From Patescibacteria group bacterium (GTDB taxonomy: Bacteria > Patescibacteriota > Patescibacteriia > Magasanikbacterales > GWA2-37-8), in the NCBI GenBank assembly GCA_004321885.1, contig SCQK01000001.1, positions 1 through 55,574 on the forward strand: a stretch of 55,574 nucleotides of DNA. Direction: 5' to 3'. The notes under the pieces were generated by a model, which was not told the origin of the DNA, did no database searches, and was given only the letters and a program-made list of their open reading frames with translations. Shown here in pieces: positions 14,954 to 54,608 of the stretch (within the stretch, counting starts at the first letter, position 1; each line of letters begins with the position of its first letter). The translations under genes and the position numbers were made by a program.

Positions 14954-14955
14954 GT

Positions 14956-14979
14956 GTCATTCCCGCGAAAGCGGGAATC
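14956..14979. repeat. palindromic repeat family A (GTCATTCCCGCGAAAGCGGGAATC)
   Basis: gtcattcccgcgaaagcgggaatc immediately upstream of dnaA. Confidence 0.8.
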
Positions 14980-15090
14980 TATTTTTGAAAGTTACCAATA
15001 CATTTTAGCACAGCGCTCCCGGTTGTCCAATACTGTCAAATCCGTTTGGGTGGATGAATTGTGGAAAAACTGTGCACAACTCTCTTCGCA

Positions 15091-16000: not shown

Positions 16001-16273
16001 GTGGTGATTATGAAAAAAACACTAAATTTCCTCTTATCTCTGCCCCGAATCCCAATTTTATTTTTAATTAAACTGTATCAGAAAACTCTTTCGCCGGACC
16101 ACGGACTGCTCAAAGTATTTTTTCCTCACGGTTTTTGCCGTTTTCATCCCAGTTGTAGCGAGTATGGTTATCAGACAATCAAAAACCGCGGGTTAATTCG
16201 CGGTCTTCCGAAAACCATTTGGCGCGTCCTGCGCTGTAACCCTTGGGGCAAGGGTGGGGTGGACTGGCCTTAG
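16001..16273 (+). CDS. yidD: membrane protein insertion efficiency factor YidD
   Basis: HPSCSEYGYQTIKNRGLIRGLPKTIWRVLRCNPWGKGGVDWP. Confidence 0.85.
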   Translation: MVIMKKTLNFLLSLPRIPILFLIKLYQKTLSPDHGLLKVFFPHGFCRFHPSCSEYGYQTIKNRGLIRGLPKTIWRVLRCNPWGKGGVDWP

Positions 16274-22692: not shown

Positions 22693-22703
22693 ATAAGCAA
22701 ATT

Positions 22704-22731
22704 GTCATTCCCGCGAAAGCGGGAATCCAGG
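22704..22731. repeat. palindromic repeat family A
   Basis: gtcattcccgcgaaagcgggaatccagg, upstream of tig. Confidence 0.8.
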
Positions 22732-31794: not shown

Positions 31795-32709
31795 ATGGGA
31801 CAACTAATAGACGGAAAATTGATTGCCAAGCATATTGAAGCCGAGACCGCAAGGAGAGTGGCTTTGCTCAAGGAGAAAGGAGCGAAACCAAAGCTTGCGG
31901 TTTTTTTAGTCGGCGAAGACAAGCCGTCGCAAAAGTACGTCAAGAAAAAAGGCGAGGCCGCGCAGCGCGTGGGCCTGGATTTTGTTTTACATGAGTTGGC
32001 GGGCGATATTGGCATGGCCGAGTTGGTGGAAAAAATAGAAGACGCCCAGCATAATGAGGAGCTGTCGGGGATAATTATTCAGCTGCCTTTACCCGAACAT
32101 CTGTACACTTCCGAAGTGTTAAACGCCATTCATCCGGAAATTGACGTGGACTGTTTGACCGACGTGAACTTGGGCAAGTTGGTGATGAAGACCAACCACA
32201 TTGTGCCGCCAACACCGGGCGCGGTCATTACTATAATAAAGGATTTGGGCGTGGATTTGGTGGGGAAAAACGTTGTCATTATCGGCGCCGGCGCCTTGGT
32301 AGGCAAGCCGCTTTCCATAATGATGATGAATGAAAGGGCGAGCGTGACCACTTGCAACAGCGCCACGCGCGACACCAAAGAAAAATGCCTGTCCGCCGAT
32401 ATAATCGTGACCGGCGTGGGTAAAAAAGATTTATTGCGCGGTGGTATGGTGAAAGAAGGCGCCATTGTGATAGACACGGGCGTGGCTTTCGTGGATGGGA
32501 AAATGTATGGTGATGTGAACGTGGACGAGGTGATGGAGCGCGCCGCGCACGTGACGCCTACTCCCGGCGGTGTGGGCCCCTTAACCGTGGTGCGCCTTTT
32601 GTGGAATACGGTGCTGTGCGCGGAAAGAAATTTGGAACTTGGGCTGAAACCGCATTCGCGAGAAAGAATAAAATACGAAGGGCATCGGCCGGCGAAGTAT
32701 AAGCTTTAA
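31795..32709 (+). CDS. folD: bifunctional methylene-THF dehydrogenase / methenyl-THF cyclohydrolase
   Basis: IDGKLIAKHI...VGEDKPSQKYVKKK...GxGxxVGKP Rossmann motif. Confidence 0.9.
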   Translation: MGQLIDGKLIAKHIEAETARRVALLKEKGAKPKLAVFLVGEDKPSQKYVKKKGEAAQRVGLDFVLHELAGDIGMAELVEKIEDAQHNEELSGIIIQLPLPEHLYTSEVLNAIHPEIDVDCLTDVNLGKLVMKTNHIVPPTPGAVITIIKDLGVDLVGKNVVIIGAGALVGKPLSIMMMNERASVTTCNSATRDTKEKCLSADIIVTGVGKKDLLRGGMVKEGAIVIDTGVAFVDGKMYGDVNVDEVMERAAHVTPTPGGVGPLTVVRLLWNTVLCAERNLELGLKPHSRERIKYEGHRPAKYKL

Positions 32710-32712
32710 TTA

Positions 32713-32792
32713 CCCCTCCCTAACCCTCCCCTTATAAAGGGGAGGGAAACGTATTGTTCCTCCCCCTTTATAAGGGGGAGGCGAGGAGGGGG
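32713..32792. repeat. tandem pair of family D repeats in the folD-purA intergenic region
   Basis: cccctccctaaccctccccttataaaggggaggg ... cctccccctttataagggggaggcgaggagggggt. Confidence 0.8.
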
Positions 32793-32799
32793 TAAACAT

Positions 32800-34116
32800 A
32801 TGTCACAACTTACTGTCGTGGTTGGCGCCCAGTGGGGCGATGAGGGCAAGGGGAAAATAACCGACTATCTGGCCAAAGACGCCGACTTTGTGGTTCGTTT
32901 CCAAGGAGGCAACAACGCCGGACATACGTTGGTAGTTGGGGATAAAATTTACAAACTACACCTGATTCCATCGGGTGTTTTGTATCCGGGCGCGGTTTCA
33001 ATAATCGGCAACGGCGTGGTGGTGGACCCGCTCACCCTGCTAAAAGAAATCAGCGAGTTTAAAAAAGACGGCCTGGCGCTTAATCTAAAAATCAGCAACC
33101 GTTGTCATGTCATCATGCCATATCACATTGCCTTGGATGGGGCTTTGACCGGACATCAGGGCGGGCTGGCCGCCGGCAGCACCAACCGCGGCATTGCCCC
33201 GGTCTGCGCCGATAAAAGCTATCGTCACGGCATCCGGCTGGGCGATTTGCTGGAACCGGAAATGCTTCGGGAAAAATTAGCCGTGTCATACAATTTCAAC
33301 AAAGCGATTTTGGAAAAAATTTTTAACACGCCTTTCGCCCTGTCGGAAGAAGAAATTTATAATCAGTTTTTGGATTATGGCAAATTATTGGCGCAGTACA
33401 TTGACGATACTGATGTTTTGCTTTATCGCGCCTACAAAGAAGGCAAAAATATCTTGTTTGAAGGGGCGCAGGGTTTGTCCTTGGATCTGGATGTCGGCGT
33501 GTACCCGCATACCACCAGCACCAACACGTTGGCCAGCCATATCGGCGTGGGCACGGGCGTGGGATACGACGGGAATAAACGCGTAATCGGAGTGGCCAAG
33601 GCATACGTGAGCCGCGTGGGCACCAGTCCTTTTATCACCGAACTGCCCGAAGAAGAAGCCAAGGCCTTGCGCGACAAGGGCGGCGAATACGGCACGACCA
33701 CTGGCCGTCCGCGCCGCGTGGGCTGGCTGGATTTGGTGCAACTGCGGCAGGCCGTGCGCTGTAACGGGCTGACTGAATTGGCGCTCATTAAATTGGACGT
33801 GCTAGCCGATTATGAAAAAGTGTTGGTTTGCACCTCGTATGATATAGATGGAAAAGACACCAGAGAAATGCCGGCCAGTTTGTCGCAGTTGCGCCGGGCC
33901 AAACCGGTTTATCAAGAATTCACCGGTTGGCCGGTGATAGATGGAACGGCTTTGAAACAAGGCGGGTTTAAGGGGTTGCCGCTTGAGATAAAAAACTTTG
34001 TGGAGTTTATTGAGAAAGAAACAGAGTGTCCGATCAGTATGTTGTCGTTCGGACCGGAGCGGGAACAAACCATTATTCGTGTCATTGCGAGCGAAGCGAA
34101 GCAATCCCATTCGTAA
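32800..34116 (+). CDS. purA: adenylosuccinate synthetase
   Basis: QWGDEGKGKITD, GGNNAGHT and GTTGRG motifs. The C-terminal 12 aa are encoded by the family C repeat. Confidence 0.95.
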   Translation: MSQLTVVVGAQWGDEGKGKITDYLAKDADFVVRFQGGNNAGHTLVVGDKIYKLHLIPSGVLYPGAVSIIGNGVVVDPLTLLKEISEFKKDGLALNLKISNRCHVIMPYHIALDGALTGHQGGLAAGSTNRGIAPVCADKSYRHGIRLGDLLEPEMLREKLAVSYNFNKAILEKIFNTPFALSEEEIYNQFLDYGKLLAQYIDDTDVLLYRAYKEGKNILFEGAQGLSLDLDVGVYPHTTSTNTLASHIGVGTGVGYDGNKRVIGVAKAYVSRVGTSPFITELPEEEAKALRDKGGEYGTTTGRPRRVGWLDLVQLRQAVRCNGLTELALIKLDVLADYEKVLVCTSYDIDGKDTREMPASLSQLRRAKPVYQEFTGWPVIDGTALKQGGFKGLPLEIKNFVEFIEKETECPISMLSFGPEREQTIIRVIASEAKQSHS

Positions 34117-34163
34117 TTATAGGGATTGCTTCGGTCCCGACTAAGTCGGGGCCTCGCAATGAC
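34081..34163. repeat. composite nested palindromic element (family C arms gtcattgcgag...gaagcaatccc / gggattgcttcg...ctcgcaatgac enclosing a family-B core)
   Basis: Spans the purA stop and the annotated purL start. Confidence 0.8.
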
Positions 34164-36540
34164 AACATCAAATATGATAACGACTGATTTCACGAAAATG
34201 GATGAAGCGCAAATAAAGGAATTTTTGGTTGCCAACAGAATCGCGCTGACGGTGGAAGAAATTTTGAAGATCCAAAACGAAATCTTGAAACGGCCACCCA
34301 CGCTGGCCGAGTGTATTTTGTGGTCCATTCAGGGATCAGAGCACAGCTCGTACAAATCCAGTCGTCCGCACTTGAAACAATTTCACACCAGCGGTCCCAA
34401 CGTAATACTCGGCCCCAGTGAAGACGCCGGCATTGTGGAAATTTGCTGCGACAACGAGGGCCGAAAATACGGCGTAGTGATAAGCCACGAATCGCACAAT
34501 CATCCGTCGCAAGTGGTGCCCTACGAGGGCGCGGCCACGGGCGTAGGCGGCAATGTGCGCGATGTCTGCTGCATGGGCGCGAAAGTAATCGCCTGCGCCG
34601 ACCCTCTGCGCTTCGGACAAATTGACAGTAATAAATCCAAATGGGTGCACGAGGGCGTGGTCTCGGGCATTGCCGGCTATGGCAATCCAATCGGCGTGCC
34701 AAACATCGGCGGCGACTTGTATTACGACGAATCCTACAATGAAAATTGTCTGGTCAACATTGTTACTTTGGGTGTCTTGCGCGAAGACGACATCATACAC
34801 TCGCGCGCGCCGCAAAACGCCGATGGTTATGATTTGGTTTTGGTCGGCAAGCCAACTGACAACAGCGGCTTTGGTGGCGCCAGTTTTGCTTCGTTGGAAT
34901 TAAAAGAAGAAGAAAAAGAACTCAACAAGGGCGCGGTGCAGGAGCCGAACGCTTTTTTGAAGCGCCATTTGCTCAAATCCACCTACGCGCTTTTCAAAAA
35001 AATAAAAGAGGGCGGTTTGATGGATAAAGTGGGTTTCAAAGATTTGGGCGCCGGAGGAATTGCCTGCGCTTCAGTGGAATTGGCCGACGCGGCCGGCTAT
35101 GGCGCCGAAGTGGATATTGATAAAATCCCCAAGGGCATGAACGGACTTAATCCGGCCGTGATTTTGTGCTCCGAGACGCAGGAAAGATTTATGTGGGTGA
35201 GTCATCCGGACGTGACACCGGTTATTTTGGAGCATTATAATGAAATCTTTGATTTGCCCGGCATTGCCGAAGGCGCGCGAGCGGCGGTGGTGGGGAAAAT
35301 TCGCGCTGACGGGCGCTATGTGGTGACAGCCGGCGGAGAAGAAATCGTGAGCGCGCGAGCGCAAGACGTGACACGGGGATTATTGTACAATCGGCCATGG
35401 GAAAAACCCGAGAAAAAATTGAGTGAACCAAACTTGCCCGAGCCAACCGATTACAGTGAAATACTTTTAAAAATTTTGGCCCACGAAAATGTGGCCTCGC
35501 GTTTGCCGGTTTATGAACAGTACGACAAGCAAGTGCAGGGCATCACAATGATTGAATCGGGCCGGGCTGACGCGGGCGTTTTGCAGCCATTTAAGGATGA
35601 CAGTTACCCGGAGGAAATTCGGCAAACCGGCGTCGCTTTGTCAGTGGACCAAAATCCGCGCTACTCCAAGATTGATTCTTATTGGGGGGCGGTAAACGCG
35701 GTAGTGGAAAGCTGCCGCAATGTGGCGGCTGTCGGCGCTGTGCCGTGGGCGTTGACCGATTGTTTGTGCTATGGCAATCCGGAAAAGCCAACCCAGATGT
35801 ATGAATTCGTGGAAGGGGCGCGCGGGGTGGCCGAGGCGGCCAAGGGTTTGCATTTGAAGGACTTCCCGGAAAATCCGGTGCCGATTGTTTCGGGCAATGT
35901 GTCGCTTTACAACGAAAGCAAAGGCAAACCCATCGCTCCCAGCGCCATAATTTCATGCACCGGAAAATTGAGCGACGTGAAGTGCGCGATTGACATGTCG
36001 TTTAAAAAAGCCGACTCAATTATTTTTATGGTCGGCGAGCGCAAAGACGAATGCGGGGGCAGTGTTTATTATAATTTGTTTAAAGAATTGGGAGCCAATG
36101 TACCCAAGCCGGATTTGGCGGAAGCGGAAAAACAAATTTTTGCCGTGACTGACGCGATAGAGGCTGGTCTGGTTTTGGCGGCTCACGATATTTCCGACGG
36201 CGGCTTGGCCGTCTGCTTGGCCGAGATGAGTTTTGGAAATGAGATTGGTTTCGTCTGTCATTCCCGCGAAAGCGGGAATCCAGGGTCGCAACTTCGCCCC
36301 GACAAAGTTCTTTTTTCCGAAACCGGCGGTTTTGTTTTGGAAGTGTCGCCGGAAAACCGCGGCGCAGTGGAAGAAATTTTCGCCAAACGCGGAGTAAAAA
36401 TCTTTGCCATCGGAAAAACCGCCTGTCATTCCGGGCTTGACCCGGGATCCATAACAACGTTAAAGTTTGGAGATGTAATCAACGTACCTTTAAAAGAAGC
36501 AAAAAAAGCGTGGACAGAGGGTTTGTGGGGCAAGCTGTAA
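34126..36540 (+). CDS. purL: phosphoribosylformylglycinamidine synthase subunit PurL
   Basis: PurM-like duplicated domains of FGAM synthase II. The true start is probably MTTSNM at ~34159. Contains an in-frame family A repeat (VCHSRESGNPGSQ). Confidence 0.9.
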   Translation: MLRSRLSRGLAMTTSNMITTDFTKMDEAQIKEFLVANRIALTVEEILKIQNEILKRPPTLAECILWSIQGSEHSSYKSSRPHLKQFHTSGPNVILGPSEDAGIVEICCDNEGRKYGVVISHESHNHPSQVVPYEGAATGVGGNVRDVCCMGAKVIACADPLRFGQIDSNKSKWVHEGVVSGIAGYGNPIGVPNIGGDLYYDESYNENCLVNIVTLGVLREDDIIHSRAPQNADGYDLVLVGKPTDNSGFGGASFASLELKEEEKELNKGAVQEPNAFLKRHLLKSTYALFKKIKEGGLMDKVGFKDLGAGGIACASVELADAAGYGAEVDIDKIPKGMNGLNPAVILCSETQERFMWVSHPDVTPVILEHYNEIFDLPGIAEGARAAVVGKIRADGRYVVTAGGEEIVSARAQDVTRGLLYNRPWEKPEKKLSEPNLPEPTDYSEILLKILAHENVASRLPVYEQYDKQVQGITMIESGRADAGVLQPFKDDSYPEEIRQTGVALSVDQNPRYSKIDSYWGAVNAVVESCRNVAAVGAVPWALTDCLCYGNPEKPTQMYEFVEGARGVAEAAKGLHLKDFPENPVPIVSGNVSLYNESKGKPIAPSAIISCTGKLSDVKCAIDMSFKKADSIIFMVGERKDECGGSVYYNLFKELGANVPKPDLAEAEKQIFAVTDAIEAGLVLAAHDISDGGLAVCLAEMSFGNEIGFVCHSRESGNPGSQLRPDKVLFSETGGFVLEVSPENRGAVEEIFAKRGVKIFAIGKTACHSGLDPGSITTLKFGDVINVPLKEAKKAWTEGLWGKL
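36257..36284. repeat. family A repeat, in-frame in purL
   Basis: gtcattcccgcgaaagcgggaatccagg. Confidence 0.8.
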
Positions 36541-36590
36541 AAAAAGAAGCGGTCCCGCGAGCAAAGGCGCTCGCGGAACCGCCACGGCCC

Positions 36591-36827
36591 TCACTTGGAC
36601 CCCAGACCCGAGACGGACTTGTAGTTCACGCCGAGGTAGAGCGTGCGGTCCGTGCCGAGCGCATTGAACTGCTCGATCTGGGTCCGGATGCTCTGAAGCA
36701 GGGCCTCCCCGACCGTTTTCGGATCGCCTCCGTCCGGGATGCTGGACGTCTCCTTGTTGTCGTCCAGGTTCCTTGCCGCTCTACTGACGGGCGTCTCTCC
36801 ATAGTCTTCCCCATCATCAGGCCTCAT
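36591..36827 (-). CDS. small acidic hypothetical protein (78 aa) in a GC-rich islet inside the pur operon
   Basis: AAGGAGAGG RBS 5 nt before ATG. GC-rich. Flanked by the hairpin gcggtcccgcgagc/gctcgcggaaccgc at 36546-36585. Confidence 0.4.
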   Translation of the reverse strand: MRPDDGEDYGETPVSRAARNLDDNKETSSIPDGGDPKTVGEALLQSIRTQIEQFNALGTDRTLYLGVNYKSVSGLGSK

Positions 36828-36896
36828 CGCGTCCTCTCCTTGTCTTGCCCCCTTAAAATTCTAAATCGTACTCAATTCTACAAAAATTAGCCATTT

Positions 36897-38060
36897 ATGT
36901 CAAACATCTCTTATTCCGATTCCGGCGTCAATTACCAGGCGCTTGATCCGGTGAAAAAATTGGCGCAAATCGCGGCCCGGTCCACGGCTCGTCATTTGTC
37001 GTCGTCCGGTTTCACCGAATCAGAAGACACGCGCGGCGAGTCGGCTTATGTTTGGCAGCAAGGCGACCTCCTGATGGCCTCGGTCATTGAAGGCCTGGGC
37101 ACCAAAAATTTGGTGGCTGACGCCATGCGTAAAATTACCGGCAAGACCTATTACGATATTGTCAGCCACGATACTGTGGCTACGATTATAAACGATCTTG
37201 TTTCGGTGGGCGCCAAGCCGCTTGCTCTCTTCGCTTACTGGGCCGTGGGCAAAAGCGAATGGCTGGCCGACGCGGAAAGGACAAAGGATTTGGCGGACGG
37301 CTGGAAGTCGGCTTGTGATTTAGCCCAAGTTTCCTGGGGAGGCGGCGAAACCCCCGCCTACGCCGGCATCATTAATCCGGAGACCATTGATTTGGCAGGT
37401 TCGGCCGTGGGTATTATTAAAGATAAAAATAATTTGCTCACGGACAAAAAAATACAGGCCGGAGACAGGATAATTTTTTTGAAAAGCAACGGCATAAACG
37501 CCAACGGTTTGTCGCTGGCGCGCGCGATTGCAAATACCCCCTCCTCGCCTCCCCCTTATAAAGGGGGAGGAAATCGTCTCCCTCCCCTTTATAAGGGGAG
37601 GGTTGGGGAGGGGTATGGTGCCAAGCTGCCAAGTGGCGTAATGTACGGAGAAGCATTACTCACAAAAACAAACATCTACGCGAAATTGGTACAGGACTTG
37701 CAGGCGGCAGAAGTAGATATACATTATATTACAAATATCACCGGACATGGATTGCGTAAAGTTATGCGCGGTAGGCCGAATTTTACATACGTAATAGAGA
37801 AAATTTTTGAACCGCTGGAATTATTTATTTTTATGCAAGGTCAGGCCGGGCTTTCGGATTTTGAAATGTATCAGACGTTTAACATGGGGCAGGATTACGC
37901 GATTTACTTATCAGCCGCCGACGTGGCCCGCGCTTTGGAAGTGATAAAACAAAATAATTTTACAGGCATTGAGGCGGGTTTTGTGGAAGCGGGCGAAAAG
38001 CGCGTGATAATCAAACCGAAGAATTTAGAGTATAAAGGAGAGACGTTGGATTTGAGATAA
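36897..38060 (+). CDS. purM: phosphoribosylformylglycinamidine cyclo-ligase (AIR synthetase)
   Basis: SYSDSGVNYQALDP and PurM N- and C-terminal domain patterns. Contains a tandem in-frame family D insertion (SPPPYKGGGNRLPPLYKGRVGEG). Confidence 0.85.
   Translation: MSNISYSDSGVNYQALDPVKKLAQIAARSTARHLSSSGFTESEDTRGESAYVWQQGDLLMASVIEGLGTKNLVADAMRKITGKTYYDIVSHDTVATIINDLVSVGAKPLALFAYWAVGKSEWLADAERTKDLADGWKSACDLAQVSWGGGETPAYAGIINPETIDLAGSAVGIIKDKNNLLTDKKIQAGDRIIFLKSNGINANGLSLARAIANTPSSPPPYKGGGNRLPPLYKGRVGEGYGAKLPSGVMYGEALLTKTNIYAKLVQDLQAAEVDIHYITNITGHGLRKVMRGRPNFTYVIEKIFEPLELFIFMQGQAGLSDFEMYQTFNMGQDYAIYLSAADVARALEVIKQNNFTGIEAGFVEAGEKRVIIKPKNLEYKGETLDLR
37537..37614. repeat. tandem family D repeats, in-frame in purM
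   Basis: cccctcctcgcctcccccttataaagggggagg...cctcccctttataaggggagggttggggaggggt. Confidence 0.8.
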
Positions 38061-38065
38061 ACATT

Positions 38066-39412
38066 ATGAAAGTCGCCATCATACAATTCCCCGGCAGTAA
38101 CTGTGAATCGGAATCCATTTACGCGGTGCGGCGCGCCGGCATGGAGCCGGTGGAATTTTTGTGGAATCAAGAGCACGACGAGCTGAAAAATTTTGACGGC
38201 TATTTCATCGTGGGCGGATTTTCCTACGAAGACCGCTCGCGCTCGGGCATCATCGCCTCGCTTGATCCCCTGCTTACCGCCTTGAAAGCGGAAAACGAAA
38301 AAGGCAAACCGATTCTGGGCGTTTGCAATGGGGCGCAGATTTTGGTGGAGTCGGGCATTGTGCCGGGCCTAGCCGACTATGCCGTGGGCCACCACACCAA
38401 AGATTTTGGTGTGGTGGCAGGTATGGCGCTCGCTGTAAACAAACGAGTGAAAGACGGACGCGTGCTGGGCACCGGATTTTATAATTCCTGGTCCAACGTC
38501 CAACTGTCGGCCCCGAGCGAACGCTCGGCTTTCACGCGCCACATGAAGCCGGGCGAATTTATAAATATTCCCGTGGCGCACGGCGAAGGCCGCTTTACCA
38601 TGCCGGACGAACTCTTGGCCGAATTGATTGTCAAAAACCAAACAGTGTTTCGCTACTGCGATGACAGGGGAGAAATCAGTTCGGAATTTCCGGTAAATCC
38701 GAACGGCTCCATGCATAATTTAGCGGCTGTCTGCAACGCGGCCGGCAACGCCATGGCCATGATGCCCCACCCCGAACGCACGCCGAACGGCCAAGCCATT
38801 TTTACTTCCATGCGCGAGTATGTTGAAAAAGAAAAAACCATAACGATGAAAAACGTTACGGATAATTTCCGGCCAACCGTGATGGAAATATCCGAGTATA
38901 AGCCGGAACCAAATTCTACAGAATTAGTCATCGGTTTAATCATTACAGACAATGAAGCCGGCACGGTAAAAAATACTTTGCGTCGGTTGAATATTGACGC
39001 GGAAATTACGAAATACATTCACTGGGAAATTTCGGCTGACGACCCGGCGACGATTGTCGCTTCGCCGGCTTGCCGCGACGAGCTATTTAACTCCAACAAA
39101 GAAAAGATAGTGCAACTGGGCTCCACAGCCCCGGTCGCCTGCGGCGACCGTGGGACTATGGAGTCAACCAATGCGCTTCAGAATGACAATACGGCTTATC
39201 TGCTCGTGCGCTATCGCGAAGATTTCGTGGGGCAAAGCAAACAGTATGTTTTGGAAAATCGGCTGGGCGTTTCCGGGGTTAAAAAGATAACCAAAGGCAC
39301 GCTCTGGAAAATTTCCGCGCCCAGTGATAGGATTGAGGAAATCGTAAGCAAGGTTATTTCCAGCAGGATTTTATTCAATCAATTTTCACAGGGGTGTTTT
39401 AAATATATATAG
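38066..39412 (+). CDS. purQ: FGAM synthase glutaminase subunit PurQ with a ~210-aa C-terminal extension, possibly tandem PurS-like domains
   Basis: Class I glutamine amidotransferase triad: GVCNGAQIL Cys and the His in PHPER. The extension resembles two ~85-aa PurS-like modules. Confidence 0.8.
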   Translation: MKVAIIQFPGSNCESESIYAVRRAGMEPVEFLWNQEHDELKNFDGYFIVGGFSYEDRSRSGIIASLDPLLTALKAENEKGKPILGVCNGAQILVESGIVPGLADYAVGHHTKDFGVVAGMALAVNKRVKDGRVLGTGFYNSWSNVQLSAPSERSAFTRHMKPGEFINIPVAHGEGRFTMPDELLAELIVKNQTVFRYCDDRGEISSEFPVNPNGSMHNLAAVCNAAGNAMAMMPHPERTPNGQAIFTSMREYVEKEKTITMKNVTDNFRPTVMEISEYKPEPNSTELVIGLIITDNEAGTVKNTLRRLNIDAEITKYIHWEISADDPATIVASPACRDELFNSNKEKIVQLGSTAPVACGDRGTMESTNALQNDNTAYLLVRYREDFVGQSKQYVLENRLGVSGVKKITKGTLWKISAPSDRIEEIVSKVISSRILFNQFSQGCFKYI

Positions 39413-39413
39413 T

Positions 39414-40805
39414 ATGGATTACACTTCCATCATCAGACAAAATCTGAATAATTGTCTGACGCAGACGAATTTAAATATCGGCAAGAAAAAAATTGGCAAG
39501 GTGCGCGATACCTATGAACTCGCCGATAAAATGATTCTAGTCACTACTGACCGACAGAGCGCTTTTGACCGCATTTTGGCTTCCATCCCGTTTAAGGGGC
39601 AAGTGCTCAATCAAACCAGCGCCTGGTGGTTTGAAAAAACCAAACACATTATCCCCAATCATGTTTTGTCTATCCCCGACCCCAACGTGACCATGGCCAA
39701 AAAATGCCAAGTTTTTCCGATTGAGTTTGTGGTGCGCGGGTATATCACCGGCACCACCGACACTTCGGCTTGGGTAAATTATCAAAAAGGGGTGCGTAAT
39801 TTTTGCGGCAACGCTTTACCCGAGGGTCTGAAAAAAAATCAGCAGCTGGCCAAGGCGATTGTCACGCCCACCACCAAGTCCGACGCCCACGACCGTCTGA
39901 TCAGTCCCGAAGAGATTATCGCCGAAGGACTGATGTCGCGTGAAGATTGGAACTTCGCTTCAACCAAGGCCCTGGAACTTTTTGAATTCGGCCAACAAGT
40001 GGCTCGCGAGCACGGCTTGATTTTGGTTGACACCAAATACGAGATGGGTAAAGACGAAAACGGCAATATTATTTTGTTAGACGAGATCCACACGCCCGAT
40101 TCCAGTCGCTATTGGATCGCCGAAACATACGAAGACCGTTTCGCCGCCGGACAAGAACCGGAAAACATAGATAAAGAATTTTTGCGCTTGTGGTTTAAAG
40201 AACACTGCGACCCGTATGGCGACAAAGAACTGCCGCCGGCGCCCGAGGAATTGGTGGTGGAATTATCCCGCCGCTATATCATGCTTTACGAAATGATTAC
40301 TGGCGAAAAATTTGTTTTCCCGGAGGACGCCGACATCAACGAGAGAATGAAAAATAATTTGGCTGTCATCGCGAACTCTCCTCTGAGAATAAACTCCGCA
40401 AAGCAACCCCCCGCAAAAAGGGCGGTGATAATAATGGGTTCGGAAGCGGACGCGGAGTTCACGAAAAAGATTACGATAAAATTGGACGAACTGGGGGTCA
40501 GCCACGAAGAGCATGTCGCGTCGGCGCACAAACAGCCGGCAAAGGTTTTGGAAATTTTAGAGAAAAATAAAAATGAGAAAGTGGTGTACGTGACCATCGC
40601 CGGCCGTTCCAACGCGCTCTCGGGTTTTGTGGCCGCCAATTCCGACGCGCCCACCCTGGCCTGTCCACCCTTTGTCGACAAGCTGGATATGCTCGTGAAC
40701 ATTCACTCTACTTTGCAGATGCCGAGTAACGCGCCAGTTTTAACCGTGCTTGATCCAGGCAACTGCGCCTTGGCCGTTAAAAGAATTTTTGATATATGTC
40801 GCTAA
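39414..40805 (+). CDS. purC: fusion protein: SAICAR synthetase (PurC) plus C-terminal PurE (AIR carboxylase / N5-CAIR mutase) domain
   Basis: PurC N-terminal motif GKVRDTY...VTTDRQSAFD. PurE C-terminal motif AVIIMGSEADAE...VASAHKQP...VTIAGRSNALSGFVAANSDAPTLACPP. Confidence 0.85.
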   Translation: MDYTSIIRQNLNNCLTQTNLNIGKKKIGKVRDTYELADKMILVTTDRQSAFDRILASIPFKGQVLNQTSAWWFEKTKHIIPNHVLSIPDPNVTMAKKCQVFPIEFVVRGYITGTTDTSAWVNYQKGVRNFCGNALPEGLKKNQQLAKAIVTPTTKSDAHDRLISPEEIIAEGLMSREDWNFASTKALELFEFGQQVAREHGLILVDTKYEMGKDENGNIILLDEIHTPDSSRYWIAETYEDRFAAGQEPENIDKEFLRLWFKEHCDPYGDKELPPAPEELVVELSRRYIMLYEMITGEKFVFPEDADINERMKNNLAVIANSPLRINSAKQPPAKRAVIIMGSEADAEFTKKITIKLDELGVSHEEHVASAHKQPAKVLEILEKNKNEKVVYVTIAGRSNALSGFVAANSDAPTLACPPFVDKLDMLVNIHSTLQMPSNAPVLTVLDPGNCALAVKRIFDICR

Positions 40806-42130: not shown

Positions 42131-42132
42131 TT

Positions 42133-42214
42133 GTCATTGCGAGGAGGCCTGCAGGCCGACGCGGCAATCCCTTACAAGTTTGGGATTGCTTCGGCCTAAA
42201 GGCCTCGCAATGAC
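42133..42214. repeat. family C composite palindromic element filling the purB-purF intergenic region
   Basis: gtcattgcgag-gaggcctgcaggcc...gcaatccc / gggattgcttcggcctaaaggcc-tcgcaatgac. Confidence 0.8.
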
Positions 42215-42222
42215 AAAATTCT

Positions 42223-45072
42223 ATGTGCGGAGTTGTAGGAATTTATTCCAAAAAACCAGTGGCGCAGGAATTGTATGATTCTTTAATCCACTTACAGCAT
42301 CGCGGGCAAGACGCGGCCGGCATTTTGACGTACCAAGAAAAATTTCATTTCAAAAGGGGGCTGGGACTGGCGCGCGATATTTTCCACACGCACGACATGG
42401 AGCGGCTCACCGGCAATATCGGCATCGCGCACACGCGCTACCCCACCACCGGCCGCATTGAAATTGAAGATGCCCAGCCGTTTTGGACCGGCGTGCCTTT
42501 TGGCATGGCCTTGGCGCATAACGGCAATCTGGTAAATTACAACGAGGTCAAGCGTAAGGTTTTTGAAGAACGTCATCGCTATGTCAACTCCACCAGCGAC
42601 GGCGAAGTAATTTTGCACGTGTTGGCCGATGAGTTGGTAAAAGGCATGGCAGAAAATCACGTTGATACTTTTTTTGACCTGCTGTGCGACGCCGTGGCCC
42701 GTCTTTTCAAAGCGACCAGCGGAGCATATTCAGTGGTCAGCATTATCGTGGGCAAGGGCATGCTGGCGTTTCGCGATCCGCATGGCATCCGTCCGCTCAC
42801 GCGTGGCGCGCGCGTCAATCCCGATGGCAGCAAGGACTATATTTTTGCTTCCGAAAACATCATGTTTTATCCGCTTGGCTTTAAGCAAGAAGAGGATGCA
42901 AAACCCGGCGAGGTGATATTTATAGACAACGACGGCAATTTACACAGCAGAGTGGTTGGACGCGAAGCCGCTTTGGGCCAGCGCGAACCCGAATTTTCTC
43001 CTTGCATTTTTGAATACATTTATTTCGCGCGCCCAGACTCTATGATGAATAACGTGAGCGTGTACCGCTCGCGTCTGCGCATGGGACAAAATTTGGCCAA
43101 GGCGTGGAAGACAAAATTTCCCAACGTAATGCCCGACGTCGTCATACCCGTGCCTTTCACTTCCAACACCGCGGCATTGGCCATGGCGCACGAACTCGGC
43201 GTGCGCTACAGCGAAGGACTTTATAAAAACGCCTTCATCGGCCGCACTTTTATCATGCCCAATCAGGAATTGAGGCGAAAGTCAGTGCGCTACAAGCTTA
43301 ATCCGCAGGAAACGGAAATTCGGGACAAAAATGTGATGCTTTTGGACGACAGCATCGTGCGCGGCACGACCAGCCGTGAAATCGTGCAAATGATGCGTGA
43401 GTTTGGAGCCAAGGAAGTATATTTTGTCACCACTTGCCCGCCGGTCAAATTTCCGTGCTTTTACGGAGTGGACATGCCTACGAAATCAGAACTTGTCGCG
43501 TCGGCCCGGACCGAAGAAGAAGTGAGATTATATATCGGCGCTGATATTTTGCTTTATCAAAACATTCCCGACTTGGTGGAAGCAGTCACGCGCGTTCAAA
43601 GCATAGAGCACCCATGTATGGCTTGCCTGAACGGGCACTACGTGACCGGCGACGTGGATGAAAAAAAATTTAAAGAAATAGAAGCGAGTAGAAATAAAGA
43701 TAAGGGGATTAAAAAATCTATGGATATACTTATTATCGGTTCAGGAGCACGCGAGCATGCGATTGCGCGCGCGGTGGTTCGCTCACCGCAAAAACCGCGG
43801 CTGTTTTGTTTTGCTTCAAGCAACAACCCGGGCATACGCGAACTATCGGTCGGTTACGCGGTGGGAAAAATTACCGACCCAACGGCGGTGATAAATTTCG
43901 CCAAAGAGAACGCGATTGATATCGCTATCGTGGGCCCCGAAGCCCCGCTGGCCTCTGGCGTGGCTGACGCCTTGTGGGCGGCAGGCGTGGCTTGTGTTGG
44001 ACCAAAGCAAAAATTGGCGCGGCTGGAAACGAGTAAGGGTTTTACGCGCGATTTACAGGCCGAATTTAAGATTCCGGGCAGTCCGAAATACAAAAAATTC
44101 AGTTCTTTGGAAGGGGCTAAAGAATTTTTATCCGAGCTCGGCGATTTGTACGTGGTAAAAGCGGACGGCCTGATGGGAGGCAAAGGAGTGAAAGTGGCCG
44201 GGGATCATTTGCATACTTATGAAGAAGCGCTGGCCTATTGTCAGGAATTATTGGATAGTTGTCATTCCCGCGAAAGCGGGAATCCAGGTGCGGCCTTTGT
44301 CATCGAAGAAAAGTTAATCGGCCAGGAATTTTCACTGATGAGTTTTTGCGACGGCGAGCATTTGGCTCACACGCCCGCGGTTCAAGATCACAAGCGGGCT
44401 TTTGACGGCGACCAGGGGCCAAACACGGGAGGCATGGGAAGTTATAGCGACGCGGATCATAAATTGCCTTTTTTGACTGATGAAGATATCTGGCAGGCGC
44501 GCGAGATAAATAAAAAAACCGCGGTGGCTTTGAAGGCGAAATTCGGGGAGGGATATGTTGGTGTTTTGTATGGAGGATTTATGGCTACGGCGGACGGAGT
44601 AAAATTGATAGAGTATAATGCCCGTTTGGCCGACCCGGAGGCGATGAACATATTGGCCGTGCTGGAATCGGATTTCGCGGCGCTGTGTCAGGCGATTGTG
44701 GGCGGAAATTTAAGACAAGAGCACGCGCTTTTCGCGAACAAGGCGACGGTTTGTAAATACGCCGTGCCCGAGGGCTACCCGGACAGTCCGGTAAAAAATC
44801 AAAAAATAGACACGAGCGGCGTAGCCGACAAAAATCAATTGTATTTGGCTTCGGTTGACGCGCGAGATGATGGGTTGTACGAACTGGGCTCGCGCGCCAT
44901 CGCGGTGGTGGGCGTGGCCGATACAATTGCCGAGGCGGAAAAAATTGCGGAAGCGGAAGTCAACAATATCAAAGGCCCGCTGTTTCACCGTCAAGACATT
45001 GGAACTCCGGAATTAATTAATAAGAGAATCCAACACATGTCATTCCTGCGAAAGCAGGAATCCAGGATATGA
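42223..45072 (+). CDS. purF: fusion protein: amidophosphoribosyltransferase (PurF) plus phosphoribosylamine-glycine ligase (PurD)
   Basis: N-terminal MCGVVGI nucleophile and PRTase domain to ~aa 480. A continuous frame then runs into the PurD ATP-grasp domain (MDILIIGSGAREHAIA...). Two in-frame family A repeats. Confidence 0.85.
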   Translation: MCGVVGIYSKKPVAQELYDSLIHLQHRGQDAAGILTYQEKFHFKRGLGLARDIFHTHDMERLTGNIGIAHTRYPTTGRIEIEDAQPFWTGVPFGMALAHNGNLVNYNEVKRKVFEERHRYVNSTSDGEVILHVLADELVKGMAENHVDTFFDLLCDAVARLFKATSGAYSVVSIIVGKGMLAFRDPHGIRPLTRGARVNPDGSKDYIFASENIMFYPLGFKQEEDAKPGEVIFIDNDGNLHSRVVGREAALGQREPEFSPCIFEYIYFARPDSMMNNVSVYRSRLRMGQNLAKAWKTKFPNVMPDVVIPVPFTSNTAALAMAHELGVRYSEGLYKNAFIGRTFIMPNQELRRKSVRYKLNPQETEIRDKNVMLLDDSIVRGTTSREIVQMMREFGAKEVYFVTTCPPVKFPCFYGVDMPTKSELVASARTEEEVRLYIGADILLYQNIPDLVEAVTRVQSIEHPCMACLNGHYVTGDVDEKKFKEIEASRNKDKGIKKSMDILIIGSGAREHAIARAVVRSPQKPRLFCFASSNNPGIRELSVGYAVGKITDPTAVINFAKENAIDIAIVGPEAPLASGVADALWAAGVACVGPKQKLARLETSKGFTRDLQAEFKIPGSPKYKKFSSLEGAKEFLSELGDLYVVKADGLMGGKGVKVAGDHLHTYEEALAYCQELLDSCHSRESGNPGAAFVIEEKLIGQEFSLMSFCDGEHLAHTPAVQDHKRAFDGDQGPNTGGMGSYSDADHKLPFLTDEDIWQAREINKKTAVALKAKFGEGYVGVLYGGFMATADGVKLIEYNARLADPEAMNILAVLESDFAALCQAIVGGNLRQEHALFANKATVCKYAVPEGYPDSPVKNQKIDTSGVADKNQLYLASVDARDDGLYELGSRAIAVVGVADTIAEAEKIAEAEVNNIKGPLFHRQDIGTPELINKRIQHMSFLRKQESRI
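44261..44288. repeat. family A repeat, in-frame in the purD portion
   Basis: gtcattcccgcgaaagcgggaatccagg, translating to SCHSRESGNPGA. Confidence 0.8.
45039..45066. repeat. family A variant (cctgcg/cagg) at the purFD 3' end / purN start
   Basis: gtcattcctgcgaaagcaggaatccagg. Confidence 0.75.
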
Positions 45073-45653
45073 TAAAACTCGCCGTCCTCGGCTCTACCCG
45101 CGGCACAGACATGCAGGCGATAGTTGACGCGATTGAGCGAAAGGAGCTGAACGCAAAAATTGAAGTAGTGGTAAGCAATAAGCTGGACGCGTATATCTTG
45201 GAACGCGCGCGCAGGCACGGTTTGGAGGCGGTTTTTGCGGACATGAGAAGAGAAAGTGGAGAAAAAAAAACGCGCGAAGAATTTGACGCCGAGGTTTTAA
45301 AAATTTTAGAGGCAAAGCAAGTTGATTTAGTTTTGCTTATTGGCTATATGCGTATTTTATCGCCTACCTTTGTGCGAAAATACAAGGGCCGAATTTTGAA
45401 CGTGCACCCTTCCTTGCTTCCGGATTTCGCCGGCGGCATGGACATGGATGTGCACGCCGAGGTAATAAAAGCGGGCGTGAAAGAAACCGGTTGCACGATT
45501 CACCTGGTGGACGAGGGCGTGGATACAGGAGAGATTATTTTGCAAAAACGCTGCGCCGTGGAGCCAACCGACACAGCCGACACGCTCAAAGCTAAAGTGC
45601 AAAAACTTGAAGGTGAAGCGTTTGTGGAGGTATTAAGAAATTGGAAATTTTAA
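45069..45653 (+). CDS. purN: phosphoribosylglycinamide formyltransferase
   Basis: ILNVHPSLLP and the rest of the formyltransferase core. Confidence 0.9.
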   Translation: MIKLAVLGSTRGTDMQAIVDAIERKELNAKIEVVVSNKLDAYILERARRHGLEAVFADMRRESGEKKTREEFDAEVLKILEAKQVDLVLLIGYMRILSPTFVRKYKGRILNVHPSLLPDFAGGMDMDVHAEVIKAGVKETGCTIHLVDEGVDTGEIILQKRCAVEPTDTADTLKAKVQKLEGEAFVEVLRNWKF

Positions 45654-45654
45654 T

Positions 45655-50096: not shown

Positions 50097-50134
50097 GGCT
50101 CTACAGCCCCGACTAAGTCGGGGACTATGGAGCC
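50097..50134. repeat. family B 38-bp palindrome
   Basis: ggctctacagccccgactaagtcggggactatggagcc. Confidence 0.8.
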
Positions 50135-50250: not shown

Positions 50251-50288
50251 GGCTCTACAGCCCCGACTAAGTCGGGGACTATGGAGCC
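50251..50288. repeat. family B 38-bp palindrome
   Basis: ggctctacagccccgactaagtcggggactatggagcc. Confidence 0.8.
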
Positions 50289-50593
50289 AGCCGAGAAGTG
50301 AGCGGGAGAGCGGGAGCGAGGCTTCATGCCCGAGAGCCGGCACGTTGGGCTGGTCGAGGAAAGCGAGAACACATTCAAACCGCTTGGATCGCGCGAGCTT
50401 CAAAGTTTTTTGCGGGAGACTGCTATTCAAATTTTTTTCATTATTTTTTTTCAATTATTTATTGTCGTTTCTTTCGGAACTCCAGAAAATATTTTTATCC
50501 GCTACATCATGTAGTAAAAAAATAAAAATAAAAAATTATTGTCTTTGCTTGTAAAATATGTTATACTGATTTTAGAAAATTTATTTTTTAATT

Positions 50594-50631
50594 CTGGATT
50601 CCCGGTCGCCTGTGGCGACAGGGAATGACAG
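50594..50631. repeat. family A-related palindrome variant
   Basis: ctggattcccggtcgcctgtggcgacagggaatgacag. A TGtTATACT extended -10 lies just upstream at ~50557. Confidence 0.6.
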
Positions 50632-54580: not shown

Positions 54581-54608
54581 TCCCCGACTAAGTCGGGGCT
54601 GTGGAGCC
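54571..54608. repeat. family B 38-bp palindrome overlapping the stop codon
   Basis: ggctccatagtccccgactaagtcggggctgtggagcc, where the tag within ggctccatag is the stop. A 16-bp direct duplication ctcgctggctccatag lies just upstream. Confidence 0.8.

What the first reader, a model, noticed from the sequence alone, without database searches (positions are those of the whole stretch)
36257..36284. Family A repeat (ATTCCC-N8-GGGAAT core) sits in frame in purL and twice in the purF-purD fusion
GTCATTCCCGCGAAAGCGGGAATCCAGG occurs in frame in purL (36257, VCHSRESGNPGSQ) and in the purD part of purF-purD (44261, SCHSRESGNPGA). It also occurs at the purFD/purN junction (45039), at the dnaA 5' end (14956), upstream of tig (22704), and as a variant at 50594. 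The core matches the ATTCCC-N8-GGGAAT architecture of Neisseria dRS3 elements, but the gene context here is clearly not Neisseria. This looks like an independent palindromic element able to sit inside ORFs.
Basis: seen in the sequence. Interest (0 to 1): 0.6.

Follow-up and report, generated by a model that had tools for sequence, protein, structure and literature searches.

The report
Known NTS hairpin repeat inside purine genes
The 28-base palindromic repeat is real and sits in frame in purL and purD. It is not a new element: it is the Neisseria-type NTS/SRM hairpin, the target of Ssn single-strand DNA nucleases, here tolerated as short loop insertions in housekeeping enzymes of a Patescibacteria genome.

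Summary
TGTCATTCCCGCGAAAGCGGGAATCCAG occurs five times on the + strand (0 expected by chance). A long-loop variant lies at 50593 and a missed SRM variant lies in purL at 36424.

The "independent element" reading is not supported. The copies match the published NTS consensus (Chenal et al. 2025, PMC11893778) at 27/28 positions, including the oriented flanks. In some of those loci it flanks Ssn-like GIY-YIG genes.

The window is one whole contig of a Patescibacteria MAG close to Magasanikbacteria. It encodes no Ssn and no transposase.

- **purD internal copy:** a clean 27-nt, 9-aa insertion, absent from all 120 closest orthologues, in a low-confidence predicted loop.
- **purD 3' copy:** supplies a new C-terminus and the stop codon that overlaps the purN start.
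- **purL copy:** lies in a loop where seven relatives carry NTS-like hairpins in the same frame. Synonymous sites are saturated, yet the hairpin stays 23-27/28 identical with one compensatory stem change. Carriers are not monophyletic.

Verdict: a new member of a known kind. In-frame residence resembles Rickettsia palindromic elements. How the element spreads is unknown.

The parts
36256..36283 (+). NTS/SRM hairpin copy in frame in purL (reads CHSRESGNPG). Net +6 aa relative to element-free orthologues.
   Evidence: Exact 28-mer. One mismatch to the NTS consensus and passes the SRM regex. ssDNA fold: 8-bp stem with GAAA loop, -10.3 kcal/mol, z = -4.2. Orthologue comparison.
36424..36452 (+). 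Second, variant SRM hairpin in frame in purL (ACHSGLDPGS). Net +8 aa, the only element-derived insert here among 120 orthologues. Weak stem.
   Evidence: SRM regex hit. Interval is 42 aa against 33-34 aa in 115/120 orthologues; P0003 also has 42 aa but with an unrelated sequence. DNA compared with relatives. Weak fold, z = -1.1. The same CGGGCTTGACCCG core lies next to an Ssn-like gene in Moranbacteria locus L130.
44260..44287 (+). NTS copy in frame in the PurD part of the purF-purD fusion. A clean 27-nt, 9-aa insertion.
   Evidence: Exact 28-mer. Absent from 120/120 closest orthologues. DNA junctions GATAGT|TGTCAT...AATCCA|GGT with no target-site duplication. AlphaFold2 gives pLDDT below 50 for residues 182-189, between helix 167-179 and strand 193-197.
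45038..45065 (+). NTS variant with a compensatory C>T / G>A stem pair. It encodes the last residues of PurD (MSFLRKQESRI) in a different frame, and the stop overlaps the purN start.
   Evidence: Orthologue C-termini are 5-6 aa shorter.
14955..14982 (+). NTS copy in the dnaA-rpmH spacer, 2 nt from the dnaA ORF. The 3' flank has diverged (CTAT), but the head GTC and the C after the palindrome are kept.
22703..22730 (+). NTS copy 11 nt upstream of the tig start codon, antisense to tig.
50593..50630 (-). Long-loop variant (TGTCATTCCC-N17-GGGAATCCAG) upstream of a TPR-protein gene.
   Evidence: Fold -14 kcal/mol, z = -6.8. Pfam.
34174..36540 (+). purL (FGAM synthase II, 788 aa). Host of two in-frame copies.
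   Evidence: PDB and HMMER matches. 100% identical to P0001, named PurL of a Patescibacteria group bacterium.
42223..45072 (+). purF-purD fusion ORF (949 aa). Host of two copies.
   Evidence: Pfam GATase_6/7 + Pribosyltran + GARS_N/A/C. PDB PurD matches. Relatives have separate purF and purD.
45069..45653 (+). purN. Its ATG lies in the ATGA overlap with the purF-purD stop, three bases after the 45038 copy ends.
   Evidence: Pfam Formyl_trans_N. Sequence.

Best explanation
Family A is a local population of NTS/SRM repeats. These are the oriented 28-nt hairpin motif (GTC head, ATTCCCGCG-AAA-GCGGGAAT palindrome, C-YRG tail) first seen as dRS3 in Neisseria. In 2025 it was shown to be the ssDNA recognition site of the small GIY-YIG nucleases of the Ssn family, which bind the hairpin on one strand only and cut a few nucleotides 5' of it.

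In this Patescibacteria (Magasanikbacteria-like) contig the repeat has spread to intergenic sites (the dnaA-rpmH spacer and upstream of tig) and into coding sequence.

The coding copies survive for three reasons:
- The unit is about 27 nt, so it keeps the reading frame.
- Five of its six frames have no stop codon.
- The copies lie in length-variable surface loops (PurD 180-190 and the PurL C-terminal domain loop) or at a gene end, where the copy supplies a new C-terminus and stop codon.

They are therefore best read as selfish or neutral passenger insertions. DNA-level sequence is kept by whatever recognises the hairpin, or by gene conversion or re-insertion, and not by protein function.

Shown here:
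- Sequence identity with NTS.
- Hairpin-forming ability.
- Insertion polarity against orthologues.
- Loop location.
- Non-neutral conservation at the PurL site.
- NTS-ssn-NTS architecture in other phyla, and an Ssn-like gene next to SRM-type hairpins in other Patescibacteria.

Inferred:
- That an Ssn enzyme exists in this genome and recognises these copies.
- That spread is Ssn- or ssDNA-dependent. The mechanism of spread is unknown even in Neisseria.
For: - **Consensus match.** Three copies have 1 mismatch to CGTCATTCCCGCGMAVGCGGGAATCYRG, which is the paper's own search tolerance. Four canonical copies plus the 36424 variant pass the SRM regex (definitions).
- **Critical positions.** All five copies keep the GTC before the palindrome and the C after it. 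The paper found these positions critical for cleavage and binding.
- **Excess over chance.** 0 copies expected in shuffles.
- **Hairpin.** 8-bp stem, z about -4 to -5.
- **Spread of the exact 24-mer.** At least 120 loci, in records labelled Proteobacteria, Chloroflexota, Patescibacteria lineages, Omnitrophota, Nitrospirota, Planctomycetota, Acidobacteriota and a Rickettsia endosymbiont.
- **Ssn association.** Ssn-like genes occur in 6 of 120 8-kb loci, and NTS/SRM copies flank five of them.
- **Ssn in Patescibacteria.** Ssn-like proteins are annotated in Moranbacteria, with SRM-type hairpins immediately downstream, and in Peribacteria.
- **purD insertion.** Absent from 120/120 orthologues; clean 27 nt; low-pLDDT loop.
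- **purL loop.** 107/120 orthologues have the short loop. Relatives L121, L122 and L124 carry NTS in the same frame, with a compensatory stem change in L121 and a nested expansion in L124.
- **Non-neutral conservation.** 4-fold degenerate sites are 0.28-0.48 identical, yet the NTS is 23/28 and 27/28 identical (P = 2e-5 and 2e-14).
- **No mobile genes.** No transposase or integrase in the window.
Against: - No Ssn (cd10448-type) gene is present in the 55.6-kb contig. None is present in about 130 kb of Magasanikbacteria-like loci either. Only two small GIY-YIG proteins (L129, L126) turned up, and they look UPF0213-like. The cognate enzyme for this genome is therefore unproven.
- In N. meningitidis only 2% of NTS lie inside genes. 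Here 3 of 5 canonical copies do, so the population behaves differently.
- Conservation of the hairpin at one PurL site across lineages with saturated synonymous sites argues against purely neutral passengers.
- The 45038 copy fails the SRM regex, and the 36424 variant folds weakly.
Confidence: 0.72

Rival explanations
1. The copies are functional cis-acting DNA sites. They would be kept inside and around essential genes (dnaA/oriC, tig, the pur operon) because Ssn cutting of the + strand as ssDNA controls recombination, transformation or replication-associated ssDNA there. This is the effect proposed for NTS-gene-NTS arrangements in Neisseria.
For: - NTS at the same PurL loop and frame stays 23-27/28 identical while 4-fold sites are saturated, with a compensatory stem pair in L121 and another in the 45038 copy.
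- All five canonical copies are on the + strand to the right of the dnaA/GC-skew switch, which is the lagging-strand template there.
- SsnA lowers transformation of NTS-flanked DNA in N. meningitidis.
Against: - Carriers of the PurL copy are not monophyletic, and closely related orthologues lack it. The purD copies are unique to this lineage, so no site is required.
- The same PurL loop also hosts unrelated palindromes in other lineages (L240, L123). That pattern fits a permissive loop plus re-insertion or gene conversion.
- The orientation sample is tiny and is confounded by gene orientation.
Confidence: 0.15
2. It is a REP/REPIN-type element mobilised by a RAYT (an IS200/IS605-like Y1 transposase), or a classical MITE, and has nothing to do with Ssn.
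For: - Short, dispersed, hairpin-forming repeats.
- In other genomes the 24-mer often occurs as +/- pairs 45-60 nt apart, like REPIN doublets.
- The Ssn paper itself notes the analogy.
Against: - No Y1 transposase or any other transposase among the window's ORFs.
- The gene found next to the repeat in other phyla is the GIY-YIG Ssn type.
- No target-site duplication at the clean purD insertion.
- At 27-28 nt the unit is far shorter than MITEs and has no terminal inverted repeats beyond the hairpin itself.
- REP families are lineage-specific, whereas this 24-mer is identical in records from many phyla.
Confidence: 0.05
3. The hairpin acts at the RNA level: an 8-bp stem with a GAAA tetraloop in the mRNA or 5' leader that modulates translation, stability or termination.
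For: - A stable stem with a GNRA-type loop.
- The copies near the dnaA and tig starts and at the purD/purN junction are at positions where structure could affect expression.
- The 14955 copy is followed by a T-run.
Against: - The dnaA and tig copies are antisense to those genes.
- SsnA does not bind the RNA form.
- The motif's oriented flanks are conserved in many phyla regardless of transcription context.
- No Rfam family matches.
Confidence: 0.05
4. It is an independent palindrome that resembles dRS3 by convergence or chance.
For: The host is a Patescibacteria MAG, far from Neisseria.
Against: - 27/28 match to NTS, including the non-palindromic flanks.
- The exact 24-mer occurs in at least 120 loci and is linked to Ssn genes.
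- Ssn-like proteins are 70-90% identical between records annotated as different phyla, which is consistent with horizontal spread.
Confidence: 0.03

Closest known systems
NTS (Neisseria Transformation Sequence) / SRM (Ssn-related motifs), targets of the Ssn GIY-YIG ssDNA nucleases (Chenal et al., Nat Commun 2025, PMC11893778)
   Same: The 28-nt sequence is the same at 27/28 positions. The hairpin, the oriented GTC head and the C-YRG tail are the same. Both are multi-copy and found in many phyla. NTS-ssn-NTS architecture was seen here in other phyla, and an Ssn-like gene next to SRM-type hairpins was seen in Moranbacteria and Peribacteria.
   Different: Position 1 is T, not C, as in the Omnitrophota and Cloacimonadota copies. 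3 of 5 canonical copies are inside genes and in frame, against 2% in N. meningitidis. No ssn gene is on this contig. The host is a Patescibacteria MAG, a type of genome that is sparse in RefSeq representative sets (my own knowledge).
Neisseria dRS3 (ATTCCC-N8-GGGAAT)
   Same: The 20-bp core pattern is met exactly at four sites. NTS encompasses dRS3.
   Different: dRS3 is known as the integration target of Nf filamentous prophages and as the border of intergenic mosaic elements. Nothing of that kind is seen in the window.
Rickettsia palindromic elements (RPEs), selfish palindromes inserted in frame in protein-coding genes (Ogata et al. 2000, from my own knowledge)
   Same: Palindromic repeats sit in frame in housekeeping enzymes, in surface-exposed segments, without destroying the gene. 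The mode of tolerance is the same.
   Different: RPEs are about 100-150 bp (30-50 aa); these are 27-28 bp (6-9 aa). There is no demonstrated sequence relationship, although the exact NTS 24-mer does occur in a Rickettsia endosymbiont genome (L074).
REP/REPIN-RAYT systems and BIMEs
   Same: Short hairpin repeats are bound as ssDNA by a small dedicated nuclease or transposase gene that is itself flanked by the repeats.
   Different: The enzyme class differs (GIY-YIG, not HUH/Y1). There is no GTAG head. The sequence is shared among phyla and is not lineage-specific. Transposition has not been demonstrated.

Membership tests
NTS/SRM repeats (Ssn-related motifs) | Match to CGTCATTCCCGCGMAVGCGGGAATCYRG with at most one mismatch (the paper's criterion), or to the SRM degenerate pattern | tested here: met
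   22703, 36256 and 44260 have 1 mismatch; 14955 has 2; 45038 has 3. The SRM regex is passed by 14955, 22703, 36256, 44260 and 36424. The 45038 copy fails it.
NTS/SRM repeats (Ssn-related motifs) | Semi-palindrome that forms an ssDNA hairpin, with conserved non-palindromic flanks that give it orientation (three nt upstream; C immediately after the palindrome) | tested here: met
   8-bp stem with GAAA loop, z = -3.8 to -5.0. All five copies read TGTC-ATTCC[C/T]GCGAAAGC[G/A]GGAAT-C.
NTS/SRM repeats (Ssn-related motifs) | Repeated well above chance in the genome | tested here: met
   5 copies in 55.6 kb against 0.00 expected. The genome-wide count is not available, because only one contig is held.
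NTS/SRM repeats (Ssn-related motifs) | A cognate Ssn (single-domain GIY-YIG, cd10448) gene in the same genome, typically flanked by the motif | not testable with these tools
   Absent from the contig (Pfam; tblastn). The rest of the MAG could not be reached. Present next to NTS/SRM in other genomes, including Peribacteria L114 and Moranbacteria L130.
NTS/SRM repeats (Ssn-related motifs) | Strand-specific binding and cleavage by Ssn on ssDNA | not testable with these tools
   This is a biochemical test.
NTS/SRM repeats (Ssn-related motifs) | Predominantly intergenic (2% intragenic in N. meningitidis). This is descriptive, not defining. | tested here: not met
   3 of 5 canonical copies, plus the 36424 variant, lie in CDS. 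In other genomes at most about 11% of exact copies lie deep inside long ORFs.
Neisseria dRS3 | ATTCCC-N8-GGGAAT 20-mer | tested here: met
   Exact at 14959, 22707, 36260 and 44264.
Neisseria dRS3 | Serves as the attachment site of Nf prophages and as the border of intergenic mosaic elements | tested here: not met
   No prophage, recombinase or mosaic array adjoins any copy in the window.
REP/REPIN-RAYT | Linked RAYT (Y1 transposase) gene; extragenic inverted doublets; lineage-specific sequence | tested here: not met
   No Y1 transposase in the window. Copies are singletons and partly intragenic. The 24-mer is identical in records from many phyla.
MITE | Terminal inverted repeats plus a target-site duplication; typically 100-400 bp | tested here: not met
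   The clean purD insertion is 27 nt with no duplication.
Rickettsia palindromic elements | In-frame palindromic insertion in protein-coding genes, about 100-150 bp, Rickettsia-specific families | tested here: not met
   In-frame residence is met, but size (27-28 nt) and sequence family are not.

The most novel reading that the evidence does not exclude
In Patescibacteria, NTS/SRM hairpins inside essential genes are not decaying passengers. They are actively maintained or repeatedly re-created at particular loops.

The basis is the PurL site. It carries an intact, same-frame hairpin in several lineages whose synonymous sites are saturated. It shows compensatory stem changes, lineage-specific sub-families, and a non-monophyletic distribution.

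This would imply one of the following:
- DNA-level selection for an Ssn-readable site inside coding sequence.
- Gene conversion among genomic copies.
- Half-site or microhomology-directed re-insertion.

Any of these would give the first handle on how Ssn-associated repeats propagate.
Probability: 0.3. Interest if true: 0.6.

Novelty: new member of a known kind. Interest (0 to 1): 0.4.

Why it matters
The Ssn/NTS system was described only in 2025, and two things about it remain open: what it does outside Neisseria, and how the repeats spread.

This contig shows three things:
- The same motif populates a reduced Patescibacteria genome.
- It can reside in frame in core enzymes (PurL, PurD), and it can even supply a gene's C-terminus and stop codon.
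- At one protein loop it has persisted or recurred across deep divergence.

This offers natural filled-site and empty-site pairs for studying insertion. For annotators, it also explains recurrent peptides such as CHSRESGNPG, VIPAKAGIQ and SFPRKRESR in proteins predicted from metagenome-assembled genomes.

It does not reveal a new kind of element.

Tried and rejected
- **Source genome.** An exact-protein lookup of purH found nothing. PurL later identified the contig as a 55,574-bp Patescibacteria record, but the other contigs of the MAG could not be reached.
- **Rfam.** Only three tRNAs.
- **Peptide strings in the literature** (RFRGND, IPAKAGI and others): no hits. A search for in-frame palindromes in Patescibacteria found no papers.
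- **Ssn in the window and in Magasanikbacteria-like loci.** tblastn found only two small GIY-YIG proteins (L129:1037-1306 and L126:3420-3650). Their motifs look UPF0213-like and not Ssn-like, so I did not count them as Ssn.
- **PDB alignments.** They suggested no net insertion in PurL and only +3 aa in PurD. This was misleading, because those distant homologues have longer loops. Close orthologues give +6 and +9 aa.
- **The purD C-terminal copy as ancestral sequence.** Some orthologues end in HMSGLRK, so I considered that the copy arose from ancestral sequence. The DNA of that orthologue (L127) shares only ATGTC, so the idea was dropped.
- **Microhomology at the PurL empty site.** L242 has ATCCCAGGCAATC, which resembles the NTS 3' end. 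Other empty sites (L241, L129) lack this, so it remains a weak lead only.
- **Metagenome scan for more PurL relatives.** Only 7 loci, and none added an NTS-bearing site.
- **First NJ and MAFFT runs.** They timed out and were redone with smaller jobs.
Full report
**1. Observation**

The 28-mer GTCATTCCCGCGAAAGCGGGAATCCAGG is exact at 22704, 36257 and 44261. It has 3 mismatches at 14956 and 2 at 45039. All five copies are on the + strand. None is expected in 100 dinucleotide-preserving shuffles. The ATTCCC-N8-GGGAAT core is exact at four sites, where 0.21 matches at up to one mismatch are expected.

The copies are short. Aligned flanks share nothing beyond about 28-30 nt.

As ssDNA each copy folds into an 8-bp stem with a GAAA loop, at -9 to -10 kcal/mol and z = -3.8 to -5.0. 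From my own knowledge, the d(GCGAAAGC) core is the classic hyper-stable DNA mini-hairpin.

The two changes in the 45039 copy are a compensatory C>T / G>A pair, so the stem is kept. The 50594 variant is in reverse orientation and has a nested 17-nt loop.

**2. Gene context**

Pfam and PDB searches confirm these genes:
- dnaN and dnaA (minus strand, 12221-14953)
- rpmH, rnpA and yidD (15133-16273)
- tig (21412-22692, minus strand)
- purA, purL, purM, purQ, a purC-purE fusion, purB, a purF-purD fusion, purN and purH (32800-47235)

No transposase, integrase or GIY-YIG gene is present.

PurL is 100% identical to a protein recorded from a 55,574-bp contig of a "Patescibacteria group bacterium". Its nearest relatives, at 70-75% identity, are Candidatus Magasanikbacteria. 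The window is therefore one whole contig of a MAG.

**3. Reading frames**

- In purL the copy reads CHSRESGNPG.
- In the PurD part of the fusion it reads CHSRESGNPG, in the same frame.
- At the 3' end of purF-purD it is read in another frame as MSFLRKQESRI. The stop follows directly and overlaps the purN ATG.

By direct reading, five of the six frames of the unit have no stop codon.

It is at 36424-36452, TGTCATTCCGGGCTTGACCCGGGATCCAT, and reads ACHSGLDPGS.

**4. What it is**

A full-text search for the 20-mer core found it in a Neisseria gonorrhoeae paper. A search for dRS3 led to Chenal et al. 2025 (PMC11893778). That paper makes the following points:
- About half of dRS3 copies are really a 28-nt oriented motif, NTS = CGTCATTCCCGCGMAVGCGGGAATCYRG.
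- NTS is bound as ssDNA, on one strand only, by SsnA, a 94-aa single-domain GIY-YIG protein (cd10448). SsnA cuts a few nucleotides upstream.
- The three nucleotides before the palindrome and the C after it matter most.
- NTS-like "Ssn-related motifs" (SRM) flank ssn genes in many phyla.
- The NTS-ssnA-NTS layout resembles an insertion sequence, but mobility is only hypothesised.
- In N. meningitidis only 2% of NTS lie inside genes.

Three window copies differ from NTS at one position, a T in place of the first C. That is within the paper's own search tolerance. Four canonical copies and the 36424 variant pass the SRM pattern. All five canonical copies keep GTC before the palindrome and C after it, even where the outer flank has diverged.

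**5. Distribution**

The records are MAGs and isolates labelled as:
- Alpha-, Beta-, Gamma- and Deltaproteobacteria
- Dehalococcoidia and other Chloroflexota
- Bacteroidota, Acidobacteriota, Planctomycetota, Verrucomicrobia, Nitrospirota
- Omnitrophota, Cloacimonadota, Zixibacteria
- a Rickettsia endosymbiont
- several Patescibacteria lineages

The 24-mer often appears as +/- pairs 45-60 nt apart. It also occurs in 109 IMG/VR stretches.

A tblastn probe found Ssn-like genes in 6 of the 120 8-kb loci. NTS/SRM copies flank five of them (L087, L048, L086, L047 and the Peribacteria locus L114).

Ssn-like proteins 70-90% identical to the Cloacimonadota one are annotated in Planctomycetia, Omnitrophota, Kiritimatiellia, Latescibacterota, Ignavibacteria and Candidatus Moranbacteria. 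The Moranbacteria gene is followed directly by a cluster of TGTCAT-headed hairpins. One of them has the same CGGGCTTGACCCG core as the window's 36424 variant.

The element is thus the known NTS/SRM family and not an independent look-alike.

**6. Are the coding copies insertions?**

*PurD, internal copy.* None of the 120 closest orthologues has the segment. The window has exactly nine extra residues. DNA comparison with L123, L121, L127 and L128 shows a clean 27-nt insertion, GATAGT|TGTCATTCCCGCGAAAGCGGGAATCCA|GGT, with no target-site duplication. An AlphaFold2 model has mean pLDDT 89. It places residues 182-189 (pLDDT below 50) in a loop between helix 167-179 and strand 193-197.

*PurD, C-terminal copy.* Orthologues end about 5-6 residues earlier, at ...KRVEMMKxLRx*. 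The copy therefore replaces the end of the gene and supplies the stop.

*PurL, site 2 (36424).* This is a net +8 aa. It is the only element-derived insert at this site among 120 orthologues.

*PurL, site 1 (36256).* 107 of 120 orthologues have a 31-aa interval that reads EIGxxVNIPGDLRxDK. The window has 37 aa.

Distant PDB homologues have longer loops at both places. That hid the insertions, and it shows that these loops vary in length.

**7. The PurL site 1 loop in relatives**

Seven relatives also carry a TGTCAT-headed element at this loop, in the same CHS frame. Their DNA reads as follows:
- L121: TGTCATTCCCGTGAAAACGGGAATC, with a compensatory C:G to T:A change
- L122: ...GCGAAGGC..., a loop change
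- L124: the outer stem is kept and a palindrome is nested inside
- L123, L125, L126: an ATTCTGAG-type sub-family

Four-fold degenerate sites between these purL genes are only 0.17-0.48 identical. Against the window copy, the NTS is 23/28 identical in L121 and 27/28 in L122 (P = 2e-5 and 2e-14 under the synonymous-site rate).

In an NJ tree the carriers are not monophyletic. P0011 (L122) groups with the element-free P0008 and P0010 in 100 of 100 bootstrap replicates. Junction offsets also differ between lineages.

The same loop holds an unrelated palindrome in L240. A second PurL loop holds an in-frame inverted NTS doublet in L123, reading VIPAQAGIQ...LDSRFHGND.

I read this as a permissive loop in which NTS-type hairpins have persisted under DNA-level constraint or conversion, have been inserted more than once, or both. 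The data cannot separate these possibilities.

**8. Mechanism**

*Shown:*
- Identity with NTS/SRM.
- Hairpin potential.
- Orientation-defining flanks retained.
- True insertions into loops or gene ends.
- Non-neutral conservation at one site.

*Inferred:*
- This genome, or its recent ancestors, encodes an Ssn that recognises the + strand form.
- Spread depends on ssDNA and on that enzyme.

In-frame survival follows from three features. The unit is about 27 nt long, it has five open frames, and selection removes every disruptive insertion in a gene-dense genome.

*Against a purely passive view:* conservation at PurL site 1, and the fact that all five canonical copies lie on the + strand to the right of the dnaA/GC-skew switch. 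This sample is small and confounded by gene orientation.

**9. Rivals**

REP/RAYT and MITE readings fail for four reasons. There is no transposase, there is no target-site duplication, the unit is too short, and the sequence is identical in records from many phyla. An RNA-level role is unlikely because the dnaA and tig copies are antisense and SsnA ignores RNA. Convergence is excluded by the match in the flanks and by the linkage to Ssn genes.

**10. Verdict**

This is a real feature that was correctly observed. It belongs to a family published in 2025. The new aspects are the Patescibacteria host and frequent in-frame residence in core purine enzymes, which resembles Rickettsia palindromic elements. 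One copy forms a gene's C-terminus and stop codon. There is also evidence of persistence or recurrence at one PurL loop. Interest is moderate.

Noticed in passing
window 37532-37616 (purM), 47795-47836 (holA), 6588-6629 (lspA), 2328-2369 and 2445-2486 (N-terminal part of the Memo/PGA_cap ORF), 32708-32795: A second palindromic family, TACCCC[TC]CC...CCCCCTTATAAGGGGGAGG, also lies in frame in housekeeping genes and gives PPPYKGG/LSKGEG-type peptides. The same kind of insert appears in PurL of relatives P0004 and P0005.
   Followed up: partly
window 34129-34154, 47010-47035 (inside purH), 50101-50126, 50255-50280, 54576-54601, 6798-6823: A third family has a CCCCGACTAAGTCGGGG core embedded in 40-47-nt repeats. 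One copy lies just upstream of the purL start, one is apparently in frame near the purH C-terminus, and one is nested inside a TGTCATTCC...GGAA hairpin at the lspA/next-gene junction.
   Followed up: no
window 31064-31100 (polA), 53616-53698, 20457-20535, 15971-16000: Further TGTCAT-headed, ...AATCC-tailed hairpins with other stems (TGTCATTGCGAG...GCAATCC and others). The polA copy reads VITRSEATKQS just before the QVHDE motif. 53616/53664 form an inverted doublet like a REPIN. They look like additional SRM sub-families.
   Followed up: partly
window 42223-45072 and 39414-40805: purF-purD and purC-purE are single fused ORFs here. The closest relatives (L121, L123, L125, L126, L128) have separate genes. 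In L128 purF ends with TAA directly before the purD ATG.
   Followed up: partly
window 12000-15200: Cumulative GC skew has its minimum at about 12-14 kb, next to dnaN-dnaA (minus strand) and rpmH-rnpA-yidD (plus strand). The 180-bp dnaA-rpmH spacer holds DnaA-box-like sequences (GTGGATGAA, TTGTGGAAAA) and the 14955 NTS copy. This is the likely origin of replication. TGTCAT heads lie mostly on the leading-strand sequence on both sides (about 11 against 2).
   Followed up: partly
window 17713-19607 (minus strand): An AbiEii-type nucleotidyltransferase toxin gene overlaps a 204-aa upstream ORF with no Pfam hit, which may be its antitoxin partner. The pair lies between the PEP-utiliser fragment and the inositol monophosphatase gene.
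   Followed up: no
L123:11302-11378: PurL of a Magasanikbacteria relative (P0003) carries an inverted NTS doublet in frame at a different loop (VIPAQAGIQ...LDSRFHGND). Its PurL is 845 aa, against about 777 aa for typical orthologues.
   Followed up: partly
L114:6662-6922: The Ssn-like gene next to an NTS in a Peribacteria MAG has an internal stop codon. It is either a pseudogene or a sequencing error.
   Followed up: no
P0241-P0360: Ssn-like 94-110-aa GIY-YIG proteins are 70-90% identical between records annotated as Cloacimonadota, Planctomycetia, Moranbacteria, Omnitrophota, Kiritimatiellia, Latescibacterota and Ignavibacteria. This suggests frequent horizontal transfer.
   Followed up: no
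L131-L210 and further viral loci: The exact NTS 24-mer occurs in 109 stretches of IMG/VR viral contigs, sometimes in clusters of 3-4 copies.
   Followed up: no
L129:1037-1500: In a Magasanikbacteria contig, an uncalled 89-aa GIY-YIG ORF (PF01541, E = 5.5e-17) is followed by tRNA-like sequence that appears to be duplicated and interrupted by short palindromes.
   Followed up: partly
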